Origin: an uncultured virus (IMG/VR IMGVR_UViG_3300021093_000053)
Lineage: Duplodnaviria; Heunggongvirae; Uroviricota; Caudoviricetes
DNA length: 64,000 nucleotides
Strand: one strand, 5' to 3'
Virus record (IMG/VR): IMGVR_UViG_3300021093_000053
Made by a program: the position numbers and the translations under genes. Shown piece by piece: positions 1,487 through 15,371 of this stretch (position 1 is its first letter; the number at the start of each line of letters is the position of its first letter). The notes beneath the pieces were generated by a model. The model was not told the origin of the DNA and ran no database searches. It saw only the letters and a program-made list of their open reading frames with translations.

Positions 1487-2572
1487 ATGGAAAGAAAATT
1501 AGCAAGTGTTAGAGTTATCGGGGATATCCAAAGAATCCCTGATGCTGATATGATTGAATTGGCCATCGTTGATGGTTGGAAAGTTGTTGTTGCTAAGAAT
1601 GTTGGTCATAAGGTAGGTGATAAAGTTGTTTACTGTGAAATTGATTCATTCTTACCAATCAGAGACGAGTTTGAATTCTTAAGAAAGAGTTCACACAAAA
1701 AGATGGGTGACCAAGAAGGTTTCCGTTTAAAAACTATTAAACTTCGTGGTCAAGTATCACAAGGTTTAATTTTACCTTTATCTGTTTTAAAAACTACTGA
1801 TATTCCTATGATGACAACATCAAAACAAGAATGGGGTATTCAGTATGAAATGTTTGCAGAAGATGGTTTTCCTATGGTTGGAATTGGTGATGATGTTACT
1901 GAAATATTAGGTATTGTTAAATACGAACCACCAATCCCTGCAGAACTTACAGGAAAAGTAAAAGGATTGTTTCCATCTTTCTTACGTAAAACCGATGAAG
2001 AGAGAGTCCAAAACTTGGCTAAAGAATACCAAGGATACAGATTCACCTCCGCTCATAAATTCTACGTAACTGAAAAGTTGGACGGTTCTTCAGCAACATT
2101 TTACTTTAAAGATGGTGTATTTGGAGTGTGTTCTCGTAATTTAGAATTAACTGAAAGTGAAGGAAATACTTTTTGGAAAGTTGCTCGCGAATTAAAGTTA
2201 GAGGAATTATTAGGTGAATTAGATAACAATATCTGTTTGCAAGGTGAGTTAATTGGGGAAGGTATTCAAGGAAATCCGTACAAAATTAAAGGTCAAACAG
2301 TTCGATTCTTTAATGGTTTTAATATAGACACTCAAGAGAATATTCCATTTTTAGAGTTTGTTGAGTTAGTTCAAAAAATGAAATTAAAAACGGTTCCAAT
2401 ATTAGACTTTGAATTTAATTTACCTGACACGATTGATGATATGTTAGAATATGCCAACCAAAAGTCCGAATTAAATTCTAACTTTGATAGAGAAGGTGTG
2501 GTTGTTCGTTCTTACGATAGAAGAATTAGCTTTAAAGCAATTAGTAATAAATTTTTATTAAACGAAAAATAA
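1487..2572 (+). CDS. ATP-dependent RNA ligase, DRB0094/Rnl5 family
   Basis: N-terminal RKLASV..I..IPDAD.IE...VDGW.VV OB-type signature; motif I TEKLDGSS; QGELIGEGIQGN; REGVVVR; FKAISNKFLL. Confidence 0.9.
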   Translation: MERKLASVRVIGDIQRIPDADMIELAIVDGWKVVVAKNVGHKVGDKVVYCEIDSFLPIRDEFEFLRKSSHKKMGDQEGFRLKTIKLRGQVSQGLILPLSVLKTTDIPMMTTSKQEWGIQYEMFAEDGFPMVGIGDDVTEILGIVKYEPPIPAELTGKVKGLFPSFLRKTDEERVQNLAKEYQGYRFTSAHKFYVTEKLDGSSATFYFKDGVFGVCSRNLELTESEGNTFWKVARELKLEELLGELDNNICLQGELIGEGIQGNPYKIKGQTVRFFNGFNIDTQENIPFLEFVELVQKMKLKTVPILDFEFNLPDTIDDMLEYANQKSELNSNFDREGVVVRSYDRRISFKAISNKFLLNEK

Positions 2573-2587: not shown

Positions 2588-3640
2588 ATGTTAGAATTGT
2601 TGAACAAATATTACGAGGATGGGTTGGTGACAAAACAAGTTCATCCAACTCTTCCTTTGTCTATATGGAACTACACCCCAAAAGTACAATATGGTCTTTT
2701 ATATAATCAATACGCTTTATGGGATGAGGTAACTACTCAAGCAAGAGGTTTAGTTGTTGATGAAAATAGTAACGTTGTTGCAAGACCATTTAAAAAATTT
2801 TTTAATATAGAAGAAAAAAGATTCACACCAACTAAAGAATTTGATGTGTATGAAAAAATGGATGGTTCTTTAGGTATATTATTTAACTATGAAGGTGAAT
2901 GGATATTTGCATCTAAAGGTTCTTTTACTTCAGACCAATCAGCCGAATTCAAAAAAATATTTGATGAAAAATATTCGACTAATTTATTAGACTTTTCTTG
3001 TACTTATTTGTTTGAAATATTATATCCTGAAAATAGAATAGTGGTTAACTATGGTGATTTAAGAGATGTGGTATTATTAGGTAAAATAGTAACTGAGTCT
3101 GGTGAAGAACTTGACGTGGAATCATATCGGAATAACTTTAATGTTGTTAAAAAATATGATGGAATAACTGATTACACTTTTTTGAAAAAAATGGTTGCCG
3201 ATAACCATGAAGGTTTTATAGTAAAATTTTTTAATGGAAATAGAATAAAAGTGAAAGGAGAAGAATATCTTCGATTACATAAAATAATGACTAACATATC
3301 AACTACTTCTGTTTGGGAAGTTTTAAGTAATCAAGGAGATATAGGTGAATTATTAAATGATGTTCCTGATGAATTTTATGATAAGATAAAATCTTATGAA
3401 AAGGATTTAAAATACCATTTTCATCAAATAAATGAGTATTGTGGTAAACTACATGATGGTTTTAGATATGGTAAGTATGGTGATGTTGACCCTGAACCAA
3501 CTAAAAAAGAATTTGCAGAATTTGTTATGAGAAATGTAACAAAAACTGGTTTACGTCCTGTACTATTTGCTATGTGGGATAAAAAACCATATGACTACAT
3601 AATATGGAGATTATTAAAACCTGAGTTTAGAAAACTATAA
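2588..3640 (+). CDS. T4 Rnl1 (RnlA)-like RNA ligase
   Basis: ARGLV...VARPFKKFFN; motif I YEKMDGSLG; ASKGSFTS; FEILYPENRIVV; EGFIV; KVKGEEY. Confidence 0.88.
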   Translation: MLELLNKYYEDGLVTKQVHPTLPLSIWNYTPKVQYGLLYNQYALWDEVTTQARGLVVDENSNVVARPFKKFFNIEEKRFTPTKEFDVYEKMDGSLGILFNYEGEWIFASKGSFTSDQSAEFKKIFDEKYSTNLLDFSCTYLFEILYPENRIVVNYGDLRDVVLLGKIVTESGEELDVESYRNNFNVVKKYDGITDYTFLKKMVADNHEGFIVKFFNGNRIKVKGEEYLRLHKIMTNISTTSVWEVLSNQGDIGELLNDVPDEFYDKIKSYEKDLKYHFHQINEYCGKLHDGFRYGKYGDVDPEPTKKEFAEFVMRNVTKTGLRPVLFAMWDKKPYDYIIWRLLKPEFRKL

Positions 3641-5734: not shown

Positions 5735-5880
5735 ATTATTTATTGTTTTAGATACAATAAATATAGGTTTAATGTTTATAAATCAATAACCAATTAATTA
5801 ATTTTTATTAAATTAATATAGAAACCAATATTTCCGAAATGACTGTTTCGGAACTTTTTTATTTTTTTTTTCTTAAAGTA

Positions 5881-5946
5881 CTTGTCAGAAAGAAAAAAAT
5901 GTTTAACTTTGTAAAACAAATCAGAAATAACTGATAACGTTCTTTT
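5881..5946 (+). promoter_or_regulatory. Host-type promoter P1 with hairpin and boxA-like leader
   Basis: TTG (5882-5884), 19 nt, TAACTTTG (5904-5911); ATCAG-aaataa-CTGAT hairpin; then AACGTTCTTTT. Confidence 0.75.
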
Positions 5947-5981
5947 AAATAATTTAGTATTAACTTTTAAAAACTCGAAAA

Positions 5982-6146
5982 ATGAGTGAAGGGACACAAG
6001 TTCTTGATAACTTGATTTTTTCCTACATTGGAAAAAACGGTGTTAGGTACCACACCCCAAATCCAAATTTAGCACAGGCACGTGCTAATTTTTACGAGAC
6101 ATACACTGTCTACGTAACTAAAGTGGAAGAGGTAGAGGGAAAATGA
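5982..6146 (+). CDS. Small hypothetical protein (54 aa), not in the ORF track
   Basis: MSEGTQVLDNLIFSYIGKNGVRYHTPNPNLAQARANFYETYTVYVTKVEEVEGK*; A-rich start context; fills the gap between P1 and P2. Confidence 0.65.
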   Translation: MSEGTQVLDNLIFSYIGKNGVRYHTPNPNLAQARANFYETYTVYVTKVEEVEGK

Positions 6147-6163
6147 AAAAAGTTAACAAAGTA

Positions 6164-6194
6164 CTTGACAATTAAAAAAAATTGTTTAACTTTG
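6164..6194 (+). promoter_or_regulatory. Host-type promoter P2
   Basis: TTG (6165-6167), 19 nt, TAACTTTG (6187-6194). Confidence 0.75.
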
Positions 6195-6270
6195 TAAAAC
6201 CTTTCAGATAAAGGTTGGAATTACCGTAAAACAAAGGTCTCCTAAATCTGAAAAAAAAAGTAGAGAAAAA

Positions 6271-6340
6271 TTTGGAAGTTTAAAAAATTGTTCTTAACTT
6301 TGTAAAACAAATCGGAAACGTCCGATAACGTTCTTTGAAA
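6271..6340 (+). promoter_or_regulatory. Host-type promoter P3 with hairpin and boxA-like leader
   Basis: TTTG (6271-6274), 20 nt, TAACTTTG (6295-6302); ATCGGA-aacg-TCCGAT hairpin; GTTCTTTGAAA (6330-6340). Confidence 0.8.
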
Positions 6341-6399
6341 TTTTAGATATCCATTCAGGAGTAGATTAAAATCTTAGGATTTGAAACTGAAACTGATAA

Positions 6400-7216
6400 A
6401 GATATTGGGCCGTATATAGTCCATAAAATAAACCTCGAAAGGGGGATAAAGTGGAACCATCAGTGTTAGTGGTTCTGCGGTTTGGGAAACCGAACTCGAG
6501 TATACAAGTGGGATATCAGTGAGCCTGTAGTACCGAGGATAACTTCGTAGGGAAATGGAAAACTGAATAGGCAATGTGGATTGTCTGTTTGAGGTGGGAA
6601 CACCAATAAGAATAACCCATAGGAATCAAGTGAGAAATGTATTTCCAAATACATGATTGCGGGTTCCAATATGAGAGGTGACTTAAAACCGAAGGGGTAA
6701 TACCTGAAGGTAAGATAGAGAACGAGTGGTGTCGCTACTATCCTTACCACAGACCCACCAAGGTCTTGGTACGAAGTAATCTTAAAATATGGAGGTAGGG
6801 ATATCTCACGGAGTAGTATAGTATTCTGTTTCTCAAAAGGAAATGGAGCTTAAGGTGGACCACTACTTCGATTCATCCACGACACAAAAACTTTACTATT
6901 ATTGAAGTAACATTTAAGAACATAAAGGAAAAGTGTCCATCAGGTTTTGGTGAAAGGTGACTACATAGTAATGAGCCGTTCATTGCACACAAGGACCCCA
7001 AGTCTGAGTGTAGTTTTACCAAAGACCTCTAGTCCCGCAAGGATTTATTGGGGAGGCATCCTCGAAGAGAGTTGAGTAATAAGAGAGTAACCAAAATCTC
7101 AAGGAGTGGTAAACCTAAAAGACCGTCACTGAGGAATACTTCTTAAAAGGAAGTGGATAAGAGTAGAAACAATAATGACTCTAAAGGTTCTCAATTAACA
7201 GGTGTAATCTCAGCCT
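6400..7216 (+). ncRNA. Large (~820 nt) structured ncRNA, probably GOLLD RNA; 5' end approximate
   Basis: GC-richer than the genome with no credible ORF; many hairpins (CCTC-GAAA-GGGG 6433-6444, ATGTATTT/AAATACAT 6637-6654, GGTAAGATAG/CTATCCTTACC 6709-6748); terminal hairpin whose CTCAG can pair with CTGAG near 7129; T run at the end; size and phage tRNA-adjacent context fit GOLLD. Confidence 0.7.
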
Positions 7217-7284
7217 TTTTTTAGCTATACATTGTTAAACGTAAAAAGGTAGTTCGTTAGTTTAAAAATGATATATTTATATAT

Positions 7285-7821
7285 ATGAAATATACAATTT
7301 ACAAAATTACAAATACGTTAAATAACAAAATTTACATAGGTAAGCACCAAACAGAAAATATTAATGATAGTTATTTTGGTTCTGGTGTTTTATTAGAGAA
7401 AGCAATAAAGAAATACGGTAAAAAATTTTTCACTAAAGAAATTTTGTTCATATTCAATACCGAGAATGAAATGGATTTAAAAGAACGAGAGATAGTTACC
7501 GAAGAATTCATTAAAAGGAAAGATACATATAATAAATCCTTGGGGGGTGAAGGAGGTTCTAATTTCAAAGGAAAAAAACATACTAATGAAACTAAACAAA
7601 AATTATCAGATATTAGTAAAGGTAGAATTTTTTCTGAAGAAACAAGAAATAAAATTTCTGAAGGAAATAGAAAAAGAGTTCTTAGTGAAAGTACAAAACT
7701 AAAACTTTCCGAAAAGGCGAAATTAAGATTTCAAAATGAAGAAACGAGAAAAAAACATTCTGAAATAATGAAACAGTATTATACAAAAAATATCGTGGTG
7801 GTTTCCAGCTCGGTCTCATAA
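7285..7821 (+). CDS. GIY-YIG homing endonuclease (Seg-like) with NUMOD3-type repeats
   Basis: TIYKITNTLNNKIYIGKH...YFGSG..L..AIKKYG; YN...GG; KGKKHTNETKQKLS / SEETRNKIS repeats. Confidence 0.9.
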   Translation: MKYTIYKITNTLNNKIYIGKHQTENINDSYFGSGVLLEKAIKKYGKKFFTKEILFIFNTENEMDLKEREIVTEEFIKRKDTYNKSLGGEGGSNFKGKKHTNETKQKLSDISKGRIFSEETRNKISEGNRKRVLSESTKLKLSEKAKLRFQNEETRKKHSEIMKQYYTKNIVVVSSSVS

Positions 7822-8362: not shown

Positions 8363-10576
8363 ATGAGAAATATTTTAGCACTTTTAACCTACCTAATTAG
8401 TTTTGTCGGTTTCGGACAATACTGTCCATATTTAGGTCCTGACCAATTATTACCTTGCGGGTCCAACTCAACAACACTTACCGCGGACTTAACCCAATGT
8501 GGAGTTGGGGGTATTAATCCAAATCAAACAACAAATTATAATGTAACAAATATACCTTACGTTGCTCAAGTAAATAACGGTACTAATTTAACAATGACCG
8601 ATGATTCCCAACAGGGTCCGTTTAATATAGGTTTTAATTTTTGTTTTTTTGGTACGACGTATACTCAATTTTGGATAGGGTCTAACGGATGGATATCTTT
8701 TTCGCCAAACCAACCAACAACATTTACTTCTCAATCAATACCAACAACTAATGGCTTAGTACCAAAAAATTGTATAATGGGTCCTTGGCAAGATTGGCAC
8801 CCTGGAATTGGTGGTCAAATAAAATACCAAGTTCAAGGAGTTGCACCTTGTCGTAAATTAATTGTTAGTTGGGTTAATATGCCAATGTATTCATGTACTT
8901 CTAATCTTGGTACGTTTCACATTATAATTTATGAAACAACTAATATCATAGAAAATCACATTCAAAGTAAACCTGCATGTCTACAATGGCAAAATGGAAC
9001 TTCTGTTGAGGGTATCCATAATTTAGCAGGTACAATTGGGATAACAGTACCAGGAAGAAACTCAACCGCTTGGGTTGCACAAAATGATTCTTGGAGATGG
9101 ACACCTTCAGGACCTGTAGTGACTCCGACATTAACTTGGTATCAGGTTGGTAATCCTATACCAATAGGGACGGGTCCATCAATAACGGTTAACCCACCTG
9201 CCGCGGGAGCGAGTTACACCTGTCATTTTGTATATCCGACATGTAATGCAGGATGGGTAACATGTAATGGTTCACTTGGTTTAGGTCCTGATACTGTATT
9301 AGTTGTTCCTGGTCCACCTAATTTACCTTTACCAACCATAATATCTAATGAACCAACTTGTAACGGGTATTGTGATGGTAGTCTTATAATAACTCCGAAT
9401 GGAGGTAATGGAGCTCAAACAATTTCATGGAATGGACCCCAATCTGGATTCAATCCAAACAACCTATGTTCAGGGAATTATGTTTTTACTTTAACAGATG
9501 CTTTAGGGTGTACAATAACAAGTAACGTTACATTAATGGACCCTCCACCACTAATTATAAACCCTATTGTTGGTGAGGATACTATATGTATTAATTCTAT
9601 TAGTGATTTTTATAACACAACAAATTTAATTACGGGTTTAAATTATGTTTGGTCAACAACCAACGGAATTATTAATAACGGACAAGGAACAAATCAGATT
9701 ACTGTTGACGTTAATGGTACCCAATCAGGTTTTTACAATAACATGATAACTGTATACGGTATTGACGGAAACGGATGTCAGTCTCAAACAGAACTAATCG
9801 ATATAACTATTTTTAATCTTACACCTTTTATAAATCCTGTCGGTCCATTCTGTTCTTATGACGAATTTGTTACTTTAGAATCATCACCTATTGGTGGTTA
9901 TTATACAGGAAATGGTGTTATAAATAATGATTTTTTTCCCATAAATGCGGTTGGTAATAATCTTATAACGTATACTTACACACAAAGTGGATGTTTGTTT
10001 ACAACAACCGAGACAATTATTGTTTACCCACAACCGATAATTGAAACCTTAACACCGTCAAACCCATTTTTTGAAGTTTGTATGGGAGATTCGGTTAACA
10101 TCAATTTTGAATTGACATCAAATCCTCAAGGAATTAATCAATGGTCATTTATTGATAGTATTTATAATACCCAAGCATACAATCAAACTTTTAGTAGTGA
10201 AGGAACTTATATAATTTCAGTTACCACAACAACAAACGGATGTATTTCTAACCCAGAACAAACTACAGTTATTATTGACGAATGCCCTGAAGAGTTGATA
10301 TATATACCAAACTCATTCACACCTGATGGAGATGAACATAACAATATATGGAAACCTGTATTTACATCAGGACTTGACCCATATGATTTTAGAATGGAAA
10401 TCTATAATAGATGGGGAGAATTAATATGGGTTAGTGAAAACCCTTTAGTTGGGTGGGACGGTACTTTTAATGGTAACTACTGTCAAGACGGTGTCTACTT
10501 ATGGAAGTTAGAATTTGGTATACCCGAAAATGACGGAAGAAAAAAAATGTTTGGACATTTAACAACTTTTAGATAA
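8363..10576 (+). CDS. Secreted T9SS cargo protein with gliding-motility-associated (type B) C-terminal domain
   Basis: Signal peptide ending FG|Q; Ig/PKD/SprB-like repeats; C-terminal YIPNSFTPDGD..N..W...YNRWGE...GWDGT...GVY...GHLTTFR. Confidence 0.9.
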   Translation: MRNILALLTYLISFVGFGQYCPYLGPDQLLPCGSNSTTLTADLTQCGVGGINPNQTTNYNVTNIPYVAQVNNGTNLTMTDDSQQGPFNIGFNFCFFGTTYTQFWIGSNGWISFSPNQPTTFTSQSIPTTNGLVPKNCIMGPWQDWHPGIGGQIKYQVQGVAPCRKLIVSWVNMPMYSCTSNLGTFHIIIYETTNIIENHIQSKPACLQWQNGTSVEGIHNLAGTIGITVPGRNSTAWVAQNDSWRWTPSGPVVTPTLTWYQVGNPIPIGTGPSITVNPPAAGASYTCHFVYPTCNAGWVTCNGSLGLGPDTVLVVPGPPNLPLPTIISNEPTCNGYCDGSLIITPNGGNGAQTISWNGPQSGFNPNNLCSGNYVFTLTDALGCTITSNVTLMDPPPLIINPIVGEDTICINSISDFYNTTNLITGLNYVWSTTNGIINNGQGTNQITVDVNGTQSGFYNNMITVYGIDGNGCQSQTELIDITIFNLTPFINPVGPFCSYDEFVTLESSPIGGYYTGNGVINNDFFPINAVGNNLITYTYTQSGCLFTTTETIIVYPQPIIETLTPSNPFFEVCMGDSVNINFELTSNPQGINQWSFIDSIYNTQAYNQTFSSEGTYIISVTTTTNGCISNPEQTTVIIDECPEELIYIPNSFTPDGDEHNNIWKPVFTSGLDPYDFRMEIYNRWGELIWVSENPLVGWDGTFNGNYCQDGVYLWKLEFGIPENDGRKKMFGHLTTFR

Positions 10577-10615: not shown

Positions 10616-11013
10616 TGGTGGAGGTATGCGGAGTCGAACCGCGTCCTGCTCACATTACCTACTAAGGACTACACGCTTAGGTCAACATTTGAGCTAATGT
10701 TCCGAAATTTCACAATTCCCTTATTTTTAAAGTGGTTCGGTTTACTGAGAACTAATCCTCCACTTGTTCCTTTTCGGGTAGAAACCACACCTTTGTAAAG
10801 ACTTCTGTTCCTGGGTTATATGTCCACCGACCCGAAGGTTTCGCTTAATCTGATTAAGCTACCGCCACTTCCTCAGTACGAACAAGTCCTACTGCAGAAA
10901 GTTTGTTGATAACGTTGCCGTTTATCGATTTTGAACCATTTTAACAAGGTTAGATTCATCCTTGACGTGCCCCGAGTAACTAACTATGACAGTCAATTTC
11001 CAAGGTTACCCCC
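10616..11013 (-). ncRNA. ssrA: tmRNA
   Basis: 5' GGGGGTA pairs with 3' TACCTCC-A-CCA with a G3:U wobble; T arm GCGG-TTCGACT-CCGC; tag ORF 10919-10854 GNVINKLSAVGLVRTEEVAVA* after ATAAAC; upstream TTTG...TATATTTG promoter on the minus strand. Confidence 0.95.
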
Positions 11014-11093
11014 ATATGTTAAAGAACTTTTGTTTTACAAATATACAAAAAAAATCCTTATTATCAAATTTTTCAATATTTATTTGTATAAAT

Positions 11094-13328: not shown

Positions 13329-15371
13329 TTATTCATCCCCTTTTTTCTTTCTACCCTTTTTAACAGGTACTGTCTTTATTTTGATTTCTTTTTCTTCTAC
13401 GTATAGAATATATTTTGTTTGTTCATTTATATTACCTTTTAATACTTCTTCGGAAATAAAGTCCTCAATCTTATCTTGTATTGCTCTTTTAATAGGTCTT
13501 GCCCCGTAAGTTTCATCAAACCCAACTTCAGAGATTAAATCTAAAATAGTATCATCATAAGTAATCTGATATTTCAGATTAACCAACCTTTCAAATAATT
13601 TATCAAGTTCCAATTTAACTATCGATTTAACTTCATCCTTTTTAAGAGAATTAAAGATAACTATTTCATCAATCCTGTTTAAGAATTCAGGTGCAAAAAA
13701 CTTCTGTAATTCCTTCTTCAACAAGTCTCGTTTATATTCCTCCTCAATATATGTATTGTTATTACTTTTAAATCCGACACCAGAACCAAAATCCTGTAAT
13801 TTTTTAACTCCCAAATTAGATGTCATAATGATGACACAATTTTTAAAATTAATCTTTCTACCAAGACCATCAGTAATATGACCATCATCTAAAACTTGTA
13901 ATAGTGATGAAAAAATATCTTTATTCGCCTTTTCAATCTCATCAAATAAAATAACAGAGTACGGTTTATTTTTAACTTGTTCAGTTAGTTGTCCACCTTC
14001 ATCATAACCTACATATCCTGGAGGTGCCCCGATTAATCTTGAAATCGTATGTTTCTCTTGAAACTCCGACATGTCAACTCGAATTAAATTTTCTTCACTA
14101 CCAAATATTTCTTTTGCTAATTGTTTTGCCAAATATGTTTTACCAACACCTGTGGACCCTAAGAAAATAAAAGAACCTATCGGTTTATTAGGGTCTTTAA
14201 TACCTAATCTATTTCTTCTGATTGATTTTGCAATTTTAGAAACCGCTTCAGATTGACCAATAACTTTATTACCTAAACTCTCTTCTAATTTAGTCAATGA
14301 TTGAGTCTCATCAGAATTTAATTTTGAAATCGGAATTTTAGTCATGTTTGAAACTACTTCATAAACTAATTCGAGACTAACTTCTCGTTTTTGGTTTTGT
14401 AATTCAGATTCAAATTTTTTCTTTTCGGAGTCTAATTTATCTAAAATTCGTCTTTCTTTATCTCTTAAATTTGCAGCCTCTTCGTAGTTTTGTTTTTTTA
14501 CAACTTCAATTTTTTCTAATTTAATATCCTGAGCTTGTAATTTTAATTTTTCAATAATTTCAGGCATTTTTATATCAACTTGACTTCTTGCGCCAACCTC
14601 ATCTATAATATCAAACGCTTTATCTGGAAATTCCCTATCTGTGATATACCGTTCAGCCAAATCAACACATAAGTTAAGTATTTCATCAGTATATGAGACT
14701 TTATGGTATGTCTCGTACTTGTCTTTTGCATGTTTTAAAATCTCTAAAGTTTCTTGTTTTGTTGCAGAATCAACAATTACTTTTTGAAATCTCCTTTCTA
14801 ATGCTCCGTCCTTCTCGAAATTTTTTCGATATTCATCAAGTGTTGTGGCACCAATACATTGTATTTCACCTCTCGCTAATGCGGGTTTAAATATATTTGA
14901 CGCATCCAAGGAACCTGAAGAATTACCAGCACCAACTATTGTATGAATTTCATCTATGAATACAATAATATTTGAATTGTTTTGAAGTTCATCAATTATT
15001 ACTTTCATTCTTTCCTCAAACTGACCTCGGTATTTTGTACCTGCAACAATTGAGGTCATATCTAATGATACAATTCTTTTATCAGTTAAGTTTCTTGGAC
15101 ATTCCCCATTGAATATCTTAATAGCTAATCCTTCGGCAATTGCAGTTTTACCACAACCTGGTTCGCCAATAATGATTGGGTTATTCTTTTTTCTTCTTGA
15201 AAGAATTTGTGCAATTCTTGTTATCTCACGTTCTCTACCAATTACAGGGTCTAATTTACCTTCTTCCGCTAACTTTATTAAATCTCTACTAAAATTGTCC
15301 AAAACAGGTGTCGGGGAATTCTCGTTACCTTTACCTTTGTTTTGGTTACTACCATCCTTAGATTCTATCAT
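13329..15371 (-). CDS. clpC: ClpC-type AAA+ protease ATPase subunit lacking the N-terminal Clp repeat domain
   Basis: LDPVIGR, Walker A GEPGCGKT and GSTGVGKT, FIDEIH, UVR-type coiled coil (YEEAANLRD), GAPPGYVGY, GVGF ClpP-docking loop, GARP. Confidence 0.92.
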   Translation of the reverse strand: MIESKDGSNQNKGKGNENSPTPVLDNFSRDLIKLAEEGKLDPVIGREREITRIAQILSRRKKNNPIIIGEPGCGKTAIAEGLAIKIFNGECPRNLTDKRIVSLDMTSIVAGTKYRGQFEERMKVIIDELQNNSNIIVFIDEIHTIVGAGNSSGSLDASNIFKPALARGEIQCIGATTLDEYRKNFEKDGALERRFQKVIVDSATKQETLEILKHAKDKYETYHKVSYTDEILNLCVDLAERYITDREFPDKAFDIIDEVGARSQVDIKMPEIIEKLKLQAQDIKLEKIEVVKKQNYEEAANLRDKERRILDKLDSEKKKFESELQNQKREVSLELVYEVVSNMTKIPISKLNSDETQSLTKLEESLGNKVIGQSEAVSKIAKSIRRNRLGIKDPNKPIGSFIFLGSTGVGKTYLAKQLAKEIFGSEENLIRVDMSEFQEKHTISRLIGAPPGYVGYDEGGQLTEQVKNKPYSVILFDEIEKANKDIFSSLLQVLDDGHITDGLGRKINFKNCVIIMTSNLGVKKLQDFGSGVGFKSNNNTYIEEEYKRDLLKKELQKFFAPEFLNRIDEIVIFNSLKKDEVKSIVKLELDKLFERLVNLKYQITYDDTILDLISEVGFDETYGARPIKRAIQDKIEDFISEEVLKGNINEQTKYILYVEEKEIKIKTVPVKKGRKKKGDE

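What the first reader, a model, noticed from the sequence alone, without database searches (positions are those of the whole stretch)
5881..7222. Giant structured ncRNA (GOLLD-like) downstream of an rRNA-operon-style leader: three tandem promoters and hairpin+boxA elements
Seen: three copies of (T)TTG-N19-20-TAACTTTG-TAAAAC. Copies 1 and 3 are followed by hairpins that differ in sequence but keep pairing (ATCAG/CTGAT vs ATCGGA/TCCGAT), then by AACGTTCTTT. An ~820-nt hairpin-rich region without a credible ORF follows and ends in a possible pseudoknot plus T run. Known: TAnnTTTG is the Bacteroidota housekeeping -7 element; GTTCTTTG-type boxA recruits Nus antitermination factors in rrn leaders; GOLLD is an ~800-nt phage- and tRNA-associated RNA of unknown function. 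Inference: the phage mimics an rRNA operon to mass-produce and co-transcriptionally fold this RNA.
Basis: partly seen in the sequence, partly recalled or inferred. Interest (0 to 1): 0.85.

Follow-up and report, generated by a model that had tools for sequence, protein, structure and literature searches.

The report
Phage GOLLD RNA behind rRNA-style leader
A large phage of Bacteroidota carries a known giant cage-forming RNA (GOLLD) that starts with the same short signal its hosts place before their ribosomal RNA, so the phage probably borrows the host's keep-transcribing machinery to make it, and a small unknown protein gene travels with it.

Summary
Rfam places a full-length GOLLD 3' domain at 6809-7216 (314 bits, cut-off 150). 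The 5' domain (about 6348-6808) is conserved and covaries in 34 relatives.

The three promoter copies, the two hairpins and AACGTTCTTT are exactly where stated. GTTCTTTGA sits at the same place before GOLLD in 77 of 78 loci of one sample. In a second sample it is in 43 of 44 low-GC loci but only 3 of 32 higher-GC loci.

The same word lies 79-158 nt before 16S rRNA in 22 of 27 Bacteroidota rrn loci, and again after 16S in 29 of 30. So it is the host-type boxA, not part of the GOLLD fold.

Nus-factor loading for Rho-resistant transcription and chaperoned folding is the best reading, but it is inferred and not shown.

That gene is linked to boxA-type GOLLD (47 of 80 loci) and belongs to no named family.

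I found no paper in the held library linking GOLLD and boxA. This scan has noted boxA-led phage RNA units on other DNA before. GOLLD itself is known; the leader and the partner gene are the new parts.

The parts
5832..5870 (.). Terminator-like hairpin (TTCCGAAATGACTGTTTCGGAA) with T run, reads as a terminator on both strands. It closes the upstream genes just before promoter 1.
   Evidence: 9-pair stem, T run; sequence
5882..5917 (+). Promoter 1, Bacteroidota housekeeping type: TTG (5882-5884), 19 nt, TAACTTTG (5904-5911), TAAAAC
   Evidence: The TAnnTTTG -7 / TTTG -33 consensus is recalled from the literature, not from a call.
5920..5935 (+). Leader hairpin 1 (ATCAG / CTGAT, 6-nt loop)
   Evidence: it is a row of alignment A1, which shows compensatory change
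5939..5949 (+). boxA-like element 1, GTTCTTTTAAA, 33 nt before the ATG of the small gene
5982..6146 (+). Gene for a 54-aa protein of an unnamed family (47-55 aa) that is linked to boxA-type GOLLD loci
   Evidence: No Pfam or PHROG match. AlphaFold2 gives a beta-beta-alpha-beta model, pLDDT 77.7.
6165..6200 (+). Promoter 2: TTGACA, 16 further nt, TAACTTTG (6187-6194), TAAAAC
6202..6260 (+). 52-nt hairpin (6202-6253, -11.2 kcal/mol) followed by an A run. There is no boxA. The A run lies directly upstream of promoter 3.
   Evidence: Similar promoter-hairpin-A-run units occur in L009 and L034.
6271..6308 (+). Promoter 3, the GOLLD-proximal one: TTTG (6271-6274), 20 nt, TAACTTTG (6295-6302), TAAAAC
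   Evidence: 36 of 42 unique homologous leaders have TAnnTTTG within 80 nt upstream of boxA.
6311..6326 (+). Leader hairpin 3 (ATCGGA AACG TCCGAT), boxB-like position
   Evidence: 95% of cells paired, 5 of 6 pairs with changes on both sides, 0 of 500 shuffles as high. The rows were pre-selected by folding energy.
6330..6340 (+). boxA, GTTCTTTGAAA, identical to the boxA core of Bacteroidota rrn leaders and of the region after 16S
   Evidence: phage loci; host rrn
6348..6808 (+). GOLLD 5' domain, which the Rfam model does not cover
   Evidence: aligned with 34 relatives, many helices with compensatory changes. Also matched at about 70% identity in huge phages LR745206 and LR756502.
6809..7216 (+). 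GOLLD 3' domain
   Evidence: RF02032, 314.4 bits (gathering 150), E 3.8e-89, model positions 1-416 of 416
7217..7223 (+). T run after the last GOLLD hairpin; likely the transcript end
   Evidence: the last stem covaries: GC 16, CG 11, AU 8. In some relatives a tRNA-Met follows instead.
10616..11045 (-). Phage tmRNA gene (10616-11013) with the same promoter type (TATATTTG TAAAAC, 11045-11032) and a boxA-like GTTCTTTAA (11027-11019), without a hairpin

Best explanation
The region is a stable-RNA transcription unit of a T4-like jumbo phage that infects a Bacteroidota host.

Shown: its product is a bona fide GOLLD RNA of about 870 nt of folded body (6348-7216). GOLLD is the known phage RNA that assembles into RNA-only cages.

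Inferred: it is transcribed by host RNA polymerase from host housekeeping-type promoters. The proximal promoter (6271-6308) is followed by a short hairpin and then by GTTCTTTGAAA.

Shown: GTTCTTTGA is the word that Bacteroidota place 79-158 nt before 16S rRNA and again after 16S, that is, their boxA. The element is single-stranded leader sequence, not part of the GOLLD fold.

Inferred mechanism: the nascent boxA binds host NusB-S10. With NusA, NusG and SuhB this converts the polymerase into the rRNA-type antitermination complex. That makes the long untranslated transcript resistant to Rho and may help it fold as it is made.

Inferred: upstream promoters feed the same unit. Promoter 1, with its own hairpin and boxA, drives a conserved 54-aa protein gene and probably reads through into GOLLD, since no terminator lies between. 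Promoter 2 adds a short hairpin unit.

Inferred: transcription ends at the last GOLLD hairpin plus U run.
For: GOLLD identity: RF02032 at 314.4 bits against a cut-off of 150, over the full model. RNAalifold on 35 full-length homologues gives 192 pairs, 119 of them with compensatory changes, in both halves.

Leader conservation, sample 1: GTTCTTT lies 680-800 nt upstream of a GOLLD 3' motif in 77 of 78 loci that have enough upstream DNA. This count includes the window and near-identical copies; there are 42 unique leaders. The background rate is 0.24 per kb per strand.

Leader conservation, sample 2 (drawn with a different 3' motif): 43 of 44 low-GC loci have it (27 unique leaders), against 3 of 32 higher-GC loci.

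Hairpin: 5 of 6 pairs show changes on both sides.

Host rrn: of 121 Bacteroidota genomes, 67 gave a 16S match and 30 loci were fetched. GTTCTTT[GA]A is found at -79 to -158 in 22 of the 27 loci with 1.5 kb upstream, and nowhere else in that 1.5 kb. It is found again within about 600 nt after 16S in 29 of 30. Some rrn copies read GTTCTTTGAAAGATTGAA, like phage leaders.

Not tied to GOLLD or to a promoter:
- The same element precedes the phage tmRNA.
- It precedes a tRNA-Met or a roughly 190-nt RNA in relatives.
- In L002 it follows a tRNA and a hairpin.
- 6 of 42 unique leaders have no TAnnTTTG within 80 nt.
- AM24 GOLLD lacks it.

Host machinery: NusB domain genes are in 4 of 4 Bacteroidota genomes tested.

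Promoter class: the strict host-type promoter pattern occurs only 6 times in 64 kb, and 3 of those are at these RNA units.

Sequence match: the element fits 10 of 11 positions of the gamma-proteobacterial boxA consensus GYTCTTTAANA. The tmRNA copy fits 11 of 11 (passages of PMC5725501).
Against: No binding, antitermination or transcript evidence exists.

boxA function has not, to my knowledge, been tested in any Bacteroidota (recalled). A search for boxA, antitermination and Bacteroidetes found 3 papers, and by their titles and abstracts as listed none is on this.

The leader is not universal:
- L023 and huge phage LR756502 (L003) lack it.
- L299 has a degenerate GTTCTTAC.
- GOLLDs of higher-GC phages do without it.

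In 4 of 7 distinct tmRNA leaders the element reads GTTATTTGAC. That changes the C whose change to A was used as the boxA mutant in E. coli (passages of PMC5725501).

A hairpin upstream of boxA in host rrn leaders is only marginally above background (Mann-Whitney p = 0.05). So 'boxB' is well supported only on the phage side.

RNAalifold pairs CUUU of boxA with an invariant GGAG 570 nt downstream. Those 4 pairs have no compensatory change, which neither supports nor excludes a long-range contact.

The 9-mer GTTCTTTDA alone is not enriched in the window: 9 found against 5.5 expected.
Confidence: 0.6

Rival explanations
1. The hairpin plus GTTCTTTGA is a processing or stability signal rather than a Nus site. 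It would mark where a nuclease trims the precursor, or it would protect the 5' end, so that a defined mature GOLLD is released from longer read-through transcripts.
For: The element lies 6-10 nt upstream of the first GOLLD helix. It lies 6-7 nt upstream of the mature tmRNA 5' end, where RNase P must cut. In L002 it sits between a tRNA and GOLLD. A hairpin right at the transcript start is a common 5' stabiliser (general knowledge).
Against: The invariant word is the same as the rrn leader and post-16S word of the host phylum, where boxA is the established reading in other phyla. Processing sites of tRNA, tmRNA, GOLLD and a protein gene would not be expected to share one 9-mer. The two roles are not exclusive.
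Confidence: 0.12
2. GTTCTTTGAAA is a functional 5' tail of this clade's GOLLD RNA, for example a long-range contact or cage-assembly element. Its likeness to boxA would then be coincidental or secondary.
For: It is nearly invariant before GOLLD (77 of 78 and 43 of 44). It is less well kept before tmRNA and before the small gene. RNAalifold proposes 4 pairs between CUUU and an invariant GGAG junction.
Against: Those 4 pairs show no compensatory change. GOLLDs of other clades lack the element. The element also heads unrelated RNAs and host rRNA.
Confidence: 0.08
3. The leader is the binding site of a phage protein. The conserved 54-aa protein encoded just upstream could be that protein, which would make this an autoregulated or protein-loaded RNA unit.
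For: The small gene co-occurs only with boxA-type GOLLD: 22 of 46 boxA-positive against 0 of 30 boxA-negative loci, and 47 of 80. It has its own boxA-type leader in the window.
Against: About half of the boxA-type loci lack the gene within the DNA examined, yet they keep boxA. Host rrn operons use the same word without this protein. The protein has no recognisable RNA-binding family or fold match.
Confidence: 0.07
4. The word acts at the DNA level as part of a strong-promoter module, such as the initial transcribed region or a pause site, that was copied together with the promoter.
For: 36 of 42 unique leaders have the promoter within 80 nt. Promoter, TAAAAC, hairpin and boxA recur as one block. 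The hairpin plus T-rich tail was flagged as terminator-like by the simple scan.
Against: The distance from promoter to boxA varies with hairpins of 16 to about 60 nt. boxA occurs without a nearby promoter in 6 of 42 leaders and after a tRNA in L002. In rrn operons it recurs after 16S, far from any promoter.
Confidence: 0.05

Closest known systems
GOLLD RNA (Rfam RF02032). Cage structures are described in bioRxiv 10.1101/2024.12.08.627333 and reviewed in PMC12990946; I saw passages only of both.
   Same: Full match to the 3' domain model. It has a large 5' domain and a total size near 870 nt, lies in a phage, and relatives have tRNA-Met next to it.
   Different: There is no tRNA in the 64-kb window. 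This clade carries a promoter-hairpin-boxA leader and often a small protein gene. Neither is mentioned in the passages I searched: 0 occurrences of boxA in both papers.
Bacterial rrn operon leader and spacer antitermination signal (boxB hairpin, boxA, boxC; NusB, S10, NusA, NusG and SuhB complex). Listings and abstracts of PMC4807359, PMC6614797 and PMC10250234 were seen.
   Same: The order is promoter, then hairpin, then boxA, then a long structured untranslated RNA. The boxA core is identical to the host phylum's rrn boxA. Several promoters stand in tandem upstream.
   Different: It is encoded by a phage and heads a single roughly 0.9-kb RNA of unknown function. No leader-trailer helix was found. 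boxC was not assessed. Nus binding is untested.
Lambda nut sites, lambdoid N-dependent antitermination (recalled)
   Same: A phage uses boxA and host Nus factors.
   Different: In nut the order is boxA then boxB, and a phage N protein binds boxB. Here the hairpin precedes boxA as in rrn. No N-like protein was identified among the 54 window ORFs scanned against Pfam, though N proteins are small and divergent, so this is weak.
[quoted passage not shown]
   Same: boxA 1 lies 33 nt before the start codon of the small gene. That is within the 50-nt range used in that study to call regulatory boxA elements.
   Different: There, Nus factors repress translation and promote Rho termination. Whether boxA 1 represses the small gene or arms polymerase for read-through into GOLLD is unknown.

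Membership tests
GOLLD RNA (RF02032) | Covariance-model score above the curated gathering score | tested here: met
   314.4 bits against 150, model positions 1-416 of 416, E 3.8e-89
GOLLD RNA (RF02032) | Conserved 3' domain joined to a larger, more variable structured 5' domain; total 700-900 nt | tested here: met
   Body at 6348-7216. Of 192 consensus pairs, 119 have compensatory changes, spread over both halves in 35 sequences.
GOLLD RNA (RF02032) | Phage or prophage location, often beside tRNA genes | tested here: met
   T4-type portal, capsid, terminase and prohead protease genes are in the window. No tRNA is in the window, but tRNA-Met is adjacent in 12 of the 16 related loci scanned.
GOLLD RNA (RF02032) | Self-assembly into 12- or 14-mer RNA cages | not testable with these tools
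   Known for env-38 and S. agalactiae GOLLD (passages of PMC12990946). Not examined for this sequence.
rrn-type boxA antitermination leader | boxA word equal to that of the host's own rrn leader and spacer | tested here: met
   GTTCTTT[GA]A in 22 of 27 Bacteroidota rrn leaders and after 16S in 29 of 30. The same word is at 6330. The host phylum is inferred from the promoter type and a CHU_C domain protein.
rrn-type boxA antitermination leader | Located in the transcribed leader, single-stranded, upstream of a long untranslated RNA | tested here: met
   It lies 22 nt after TAAAAC and 8 nt before the first GOLLD helix. It is unpaired in the consensus fold except for 4 non-covarying pairs. The transcription start itself is not mapped.
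rrn-type boxA antitermination leader | boxB-like hairpin just upstream of boxA | tested here: met
   Phage side: 5 of 6 pairs with changes on both sides in 27 leaders (rows were pre-selected for folding). Host side: only marginal (p = 0.05).
rrn-type boxA antitermination leader | boxC element and leader-trailer helix | not tested
   A shared ATTGAA-like stretch follows boxA in some rrn copies and phage leaders. No formal test was made.
rrn-type boxA antitermination leader | Binding of NusB-S10 and Rho-resistant elongation | not testable with these tools
   Only the presence of NusB-domain genes in 4 of 4 Bacteroidota genomes was checked.
Lambda-type nut site | boxA followed by a boxB hairpin that is bound by a phage N protein | tested here: not met
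   The order here is hairpin then boxA. No N-like family was found in the Pfam scan.

The most novel reading that the evidence does not exclude
In Bacteroidota phages GOLLD is made like an rRNA, by Nus-modified host polymerase. It belongs to a conserved translation-directed module made of a small 50-aa protein, GOLLD, tmRNA and tRNA-Met. The unnamed small protein would be the first dedicated protein partner of the GOLLD cage, acting as cargo, cap or assembly factor.
Probability: 0.15. Interest if true: 0.8.

Novelty: new variant of a known kind. Interest (0 to 1): 0.55.

Why it matters
GOLLD is one of the largest bacterial non-coding RNAs. Its cage structure is solved but its function and biogenesis are unknown. 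This work adds two concrete handles.

First, a whole clade of GOLLD genes is wired to the host's rRNA antitermination signal. That predicts how an 0.9-kb untranslated RNA escapes Rho. It also suggests that the cage is folded on a Nus-modified polymerase, as 16S rRNA is. This is directly testable with boxA mutants and NusB-S10 binding.

Second, a conserved 47-55 aa protein is encoded immediately upstream in about half of these loci and in none of the boxA-less ones. It is a candidate partner for pull-downs and for cryo-EM.

The work also gives an empirical boxA for Bacteroidota (GTTCTTTGA, before and after 16S). I did not find this stated in the papers searched.

Tried and rejected
Transcript evidence. 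The look-up of sequencing runs listed 24 runs, 20 on record as RNA, from 11 studies, each holding 25-46% of the sampled words. These shares are therefore no evidence of expression.

Host promoter plus boxA scan. Pattern TTTGTAAAAC-N(3-30)-GTTCTTTGA over genome contigs gave 120 stretches, 80 of them fetched. They were mostly chance matches in many phyla, and none had a 16S start within 2.5 kb. It served only to obtain Bacteroidota genome handles.

Small protein:
- No Pfam match and no PHROG match.
- No Foldseek PDB match at E <= 0.001.
- Atlas hits all below 0.9.
- The earlier-findings look-up by sequence was empty.
- The search for related loci with the alignment was not possible. A single member was used instead.

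GOLLD in Lactobacillales genomes, to test the leader in another phylum: the server gave no answer twice. It was replaced by a second IMG/VR sample.

Weinberg 2009 (doi 10.1038/nature08586) is not held. Whether that paper or its supplements mention the leader could not be checked.

The Barley yellow dwarf virus 5' UTR match on the minus strand (18 bits against 75, E 0.29) is chance.

The sigma-70 consensus scan found no more promoter-like sites than shuffles did (7 against 6.3). It does not model Bacteroidota promoters.
Full report
WHAT IS THERE

The window is part of a 72.5-kb IMG/VR viral contig that CheckV rates about 25% complete. It carries T4-type portal, major capsid, large terminase and prohead protease genes, so it comes from a large T4-like phage.

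Three things point to a Bacteroidota host:
- a protein with a CHU_C type IX secretion sorting domain at 8363-10576;
- promoters of the TTG-N19/20-TAnnTTTG kind (the consensus itself is recalled);
- low G+C.

Rfam finds two RNA genes in the 64 kb. GOLLD (RF02032) is at 6809-7216 on the + strand with 314.4 bits (gathering 150, model 1-416 of 416). A tmRNA is at 10616-11013 on the - strand. ARAGORN finds no tRNA and misses the tmRNA.

THE OBSERVATION

The three copies of TAACTTTGTAAAAC are exact, at 5904, 6187 and 6295. TTG or TTTG lies 19-20 nt upstream of each.

Copies 1 and 3 are followed by hairpins at 5920-5935 and 6311-6326, and then by an exact AACGTTCTTT. The hairpins differ by a compensatory A-T to G-C change.

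A terminator-like hairpin with a T run (5832-5870) sits just before copy 1 and closes the preceding genes. The long ORF-poor stretch ends in the last GOLLD hairpin and TTTTTTT at 7217-7223.

IS THE RNA GOLLD?

Yes. The Rfam model covers only the 3' domain. To test the rest I took a conserved GOLLD 3' motif from the cmscan alignment and scanned IMG/VR, which gave 83 stretches with 80 loci fetched.

I aligned 34 non-redundant full-length homologues with the window. RNAalifold gives 192 consensus pairs, 119 with at least one compensatory change, spread over both halves.

Two huge uncultured phages, LR745206 and LR756502, match window 6401-7223 at about 70% identity. The folded body begins near 6348 (TATCC...), 8 nt after the boxA-like element.

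THE LEADER IS CONSERVED BEFORE GOLLD IN ONE CLADE

Sample 1. GTTCTTT lies 680-800 nt upstream of the 3' motif in 77 of the 78 sequences that have at least 800 nt upstream. This count includes the window and several near-identical contigs; the one miss is L023. These collapse to 42 unique 120-nt leaders:
- 35 read GTTCTTTGAAA, 5 read GTTCTTTGAAT, 1 reads GTTCTTTAAAA and 1 reads GTTCTTTGATT;
- 36 of 42 have TAnnTTTG within 80 nt upstream.
Elsewhere in the same loci the 7-mer occurs 0.24 times per kb per strand (117 in 484,136 strand-bases).

Sample 2, drawn with a different motif (the GOLLD 3' end), gave 76 loci with at least 1 kb upstream. Of the 44 with G+C at or below 0.37, 43 have GTTCTTT[GA]A at the expected place (27 unique leaders, 38 with the promoter). 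The miss, L299, has a hairpin and GTTCTTAC. Of the 32 with higher G+C, 3 have it; two of those sit at the 0.37 rounding boundary and the third looks to lie in coding sequence.

Acinetobacter phage AM24 has GOLLD inside a tRNA array with no such element in 4.2 kb. LR756502 has none either.

So the element is not part of the GOLLD fold. It is a leader used by the low-GC clade with Bacteroidota-type promoters.

THE HAIRPIN

For 27 distinct leaders with a short hairpin I counted pairs. I pre-selected these rows by folding energy of -5 kcal/mol or lower, so the percentage paired is biased upward.
- 95.1% of cells are paired.
- 5 of 6 pairs have changes on both sides.
- 0 of 500 shuffles reach the observed covariation.
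- Every slid register is far lower.
The other leaders carry longer or different hairpins.

THE WORD IS THE HOST PHYLUM'S rrn boxA

I reached Bacteroidota genomes through loci (for example Flavobacterium alvei and Odoribacter laneus, as titled there). I then searched 16S rRNA in 121 genomes of the phylum. 67 had a match and 30 loci were returned.

In the 27 loci with 1.5 kb upstream, GTTCTTT[GA]A occurs in 22. Each time it is at -79 to -158 from the 16S start and nowhere else in the 1.5 kb. In 29 of 30 loci it occurs again 54-600 nt after the 16S end. The misses partly carry variants such as GTTCCTTGAAAA and GTTCTTAAA.

Leader plus spacer is the classical distribution of boxA in rrn operons (general knowledge). 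The word fits 10 of 11 positions of the gamma-proteobacterial consensus GYTCTTTAANA (passages of PMC5725501).

Some rrn copies read GTTCTTTGAAAGATTGAAAGAG, close to phage leaders such as GTTCTTTGAAAGATTGAATTATCC. One rrn leader (L225) has the full phage-like layout: -7 box, hairpin, TTTA, GTTCTTTGAAA.

A hairpin upstream of rrn boxA is only marginally more stable than background (p = 0.05). NusB-domain genes are present in 4 of 4 genomes checked.

THE ELEMENT IS MODULAR

In the same phage the tmRNA gene has TATATTTG-TAAAAC-AAA-AGTTCTTTAACATAT directly before its 5' GGGGG. That boxA copy matches GYTCTTTAANA at all 11 positions.

Of the 7 distinct tmRNA leaders (window included), 2 relatives also read GTTCTTTGAAT. 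The other 4 read GTTATTTGAC, so this copy is less well kept.

In relatives, upstream promoter-hairpin-boxA units precede a tRNA-Met, a conserved roughly 190-nt non-coding element, or the small gene. In LR745206 the order is tRNA, hairpin, boxA, GOLLD.

In the window itself the loose 9-mer GTTCTTTDA is not enriched (9 against 5.5 expected). Only the three leader copies lie in intergenic DNA behind a host-type promoter.

CORRECTION: PROMOTER 1 HEADS A PROTEIN GENE

The ORF at 5982-6146 (54 aa) has relatives at 33-58% identity at the same place in other GOLLD loci.
- A profile finds it, always on the GOLLD strand and 200-550 nt upstream of the GOLLD boxA, in 47 of 80 loci of the first sample.
- In the second sample it is in 22 of 46 boxA-positive loci and 0 of 30 boxA-negative loci.
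- Starting from the protein, 10 of 13 loci have GOLLD downstream on the same strand, and 9 of them have a convergent tmRNA right after it. Of the 3 misses, 2 loci are cut short and 1 is a weak match. These are close relatives of one another.
- The large protein collection holds 148 clusters at E <= 0.001, all 46-83 aa and nearly all unnamed.
- There is no Pfam or PHROG match.
- AlphaFold2 gives a beta-beta-alpha-beta model (pLDDT 77.7) with no Foldseek match in the PDB at E <= 0.001.

The leader of this gene is variable in relatives: hairpin only, GTTCATTAA, or a full boxA. Promoter 2 is followed by a 52-nt hairpin and an A run that abuts promoter 3. Relatives have one to four such upstream units.

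MECHANISM

Shown:
- GOLLD identity;
- conservation and position of promoter, hairpin and boxA;
- identity of the word with host rrn boxA;
- independence of the word from the GOLLD fold.

Inferred:
- host sigma-A polymerase starts at about 6305-6310;
- the nascent boxA loads NusB-S10 and the rest of the rrn antitermination complex;
- this protects the untranslated 0.9-kb transcript from Rho and may chaperone folding;
- upstream units read through, since there is no terminator between 5917 and 7216 on the + strand other than the leader hairpins flagged by the crude scan.

The rivals are a processing or stability signal, a GOLLD 5' tail, the site of a phage protein, and a DNA-level promoter module. 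They are listed separately with their tests.

WHAT IS KNOWN

The cage papers and a 2026 review describe structure, the tRNA association and the unknown function. In their text, boxA occurs 0 times.

A search for papers holding both GOLLD and boxA returned 4 plant papers only. A wider search listed none of its top 15 with GOLLD. Weinberg 2009 is not held, so its text and supplements remain unchecked.

Within this scan, GOLLD has been noted very often. boxA-led phage RNA or tRNA units have been noted on other DNA. None of those notes was tested here, and none concerns this genome.

VERDICT

This is a genuine GOLLD gene, which is ordinary in itself. It carries a well-supported rRNA-type leader specific to a Bacteroidota-phage clade, and it has a previously unnamed small-protein neighbour.

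The antitermination mechanism is the most likely reading (about 0.6) but is untested.

Noticed in passing
window 10616-11045 (-): Phage-encoded tmRNA (Rfam 81.7 bits) that ARAGORN does not call. It has a host-type promoter and a boxA-like GTTCTTTAACA 6 nt before its 5' end. In close relatives tmRNA lies convergent and directly after GOLLD.
   Followed up: partly
window 7285-7821 (+) and 8363-10576 (+): A GIY-YIG/NUMOD3 homing-endonuclease-like gene and a PKD/CHU_C (type IX secretion signal) protein gene lie between GOLLD and tmRNA. In relatives such as L246 these two RNAs are only about 100-350 nt apart, so this looks like an insertion.
   Followed up: partly
window 1487-2572 and 2588-3640 (+): Two RNA ligase genes lie a few kb upstream of GOLLD and tmRNA. 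One has the PHA02142 OB-fold plus an RNA_ligase domain; the other is the T4 Rnl1 type. This makes an RNA-repair and translation-related neighbourhood.
   Followed up: no
L016, L009, L036, L053 (about 200 nt between the distal boxA and the GOLLD promoter); 3' part also in L061: A conserved roughly 190-nt non-coding element (TTGGTTATAGAAACAGTCTAGGTCCGTAGGGC ... CAGTTATAATAACC) led by its own promoter, hairpin and boxA. Its end helix appears to covary (GGTTACAG/...GTAACC in L053). It is absent from the window.
   Followed up: no
L004, L014, L016, L034, L036, L038, L039, L048, L063, L064, L079, L002: tRNA-Met (CAT) lies directly before or after GOLLD in 12 of 16 related loci scanned, matching the published note that env-38 GOLLD is downstream of a Met-tRNA. 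The window has no tRNA at all.
   Followed up: partly
window 13329-15371 (-): ClpB/Hsp104-like double AAA+ ATPase gene in a phage genome, 2.3 kb from the tmRNA gene.
   Followed up: no
Bacteroidota rrn loci L214-L243: GTTCTTTGACAT..TGAAAGAGT is a strongly conserved word after 16S rRNA across the phylum (31 distinct copies). Tandem promoters, each followed by a boxA-like word, were seen in the Odoribacter rrn leader (L213).
   Followed up: partly
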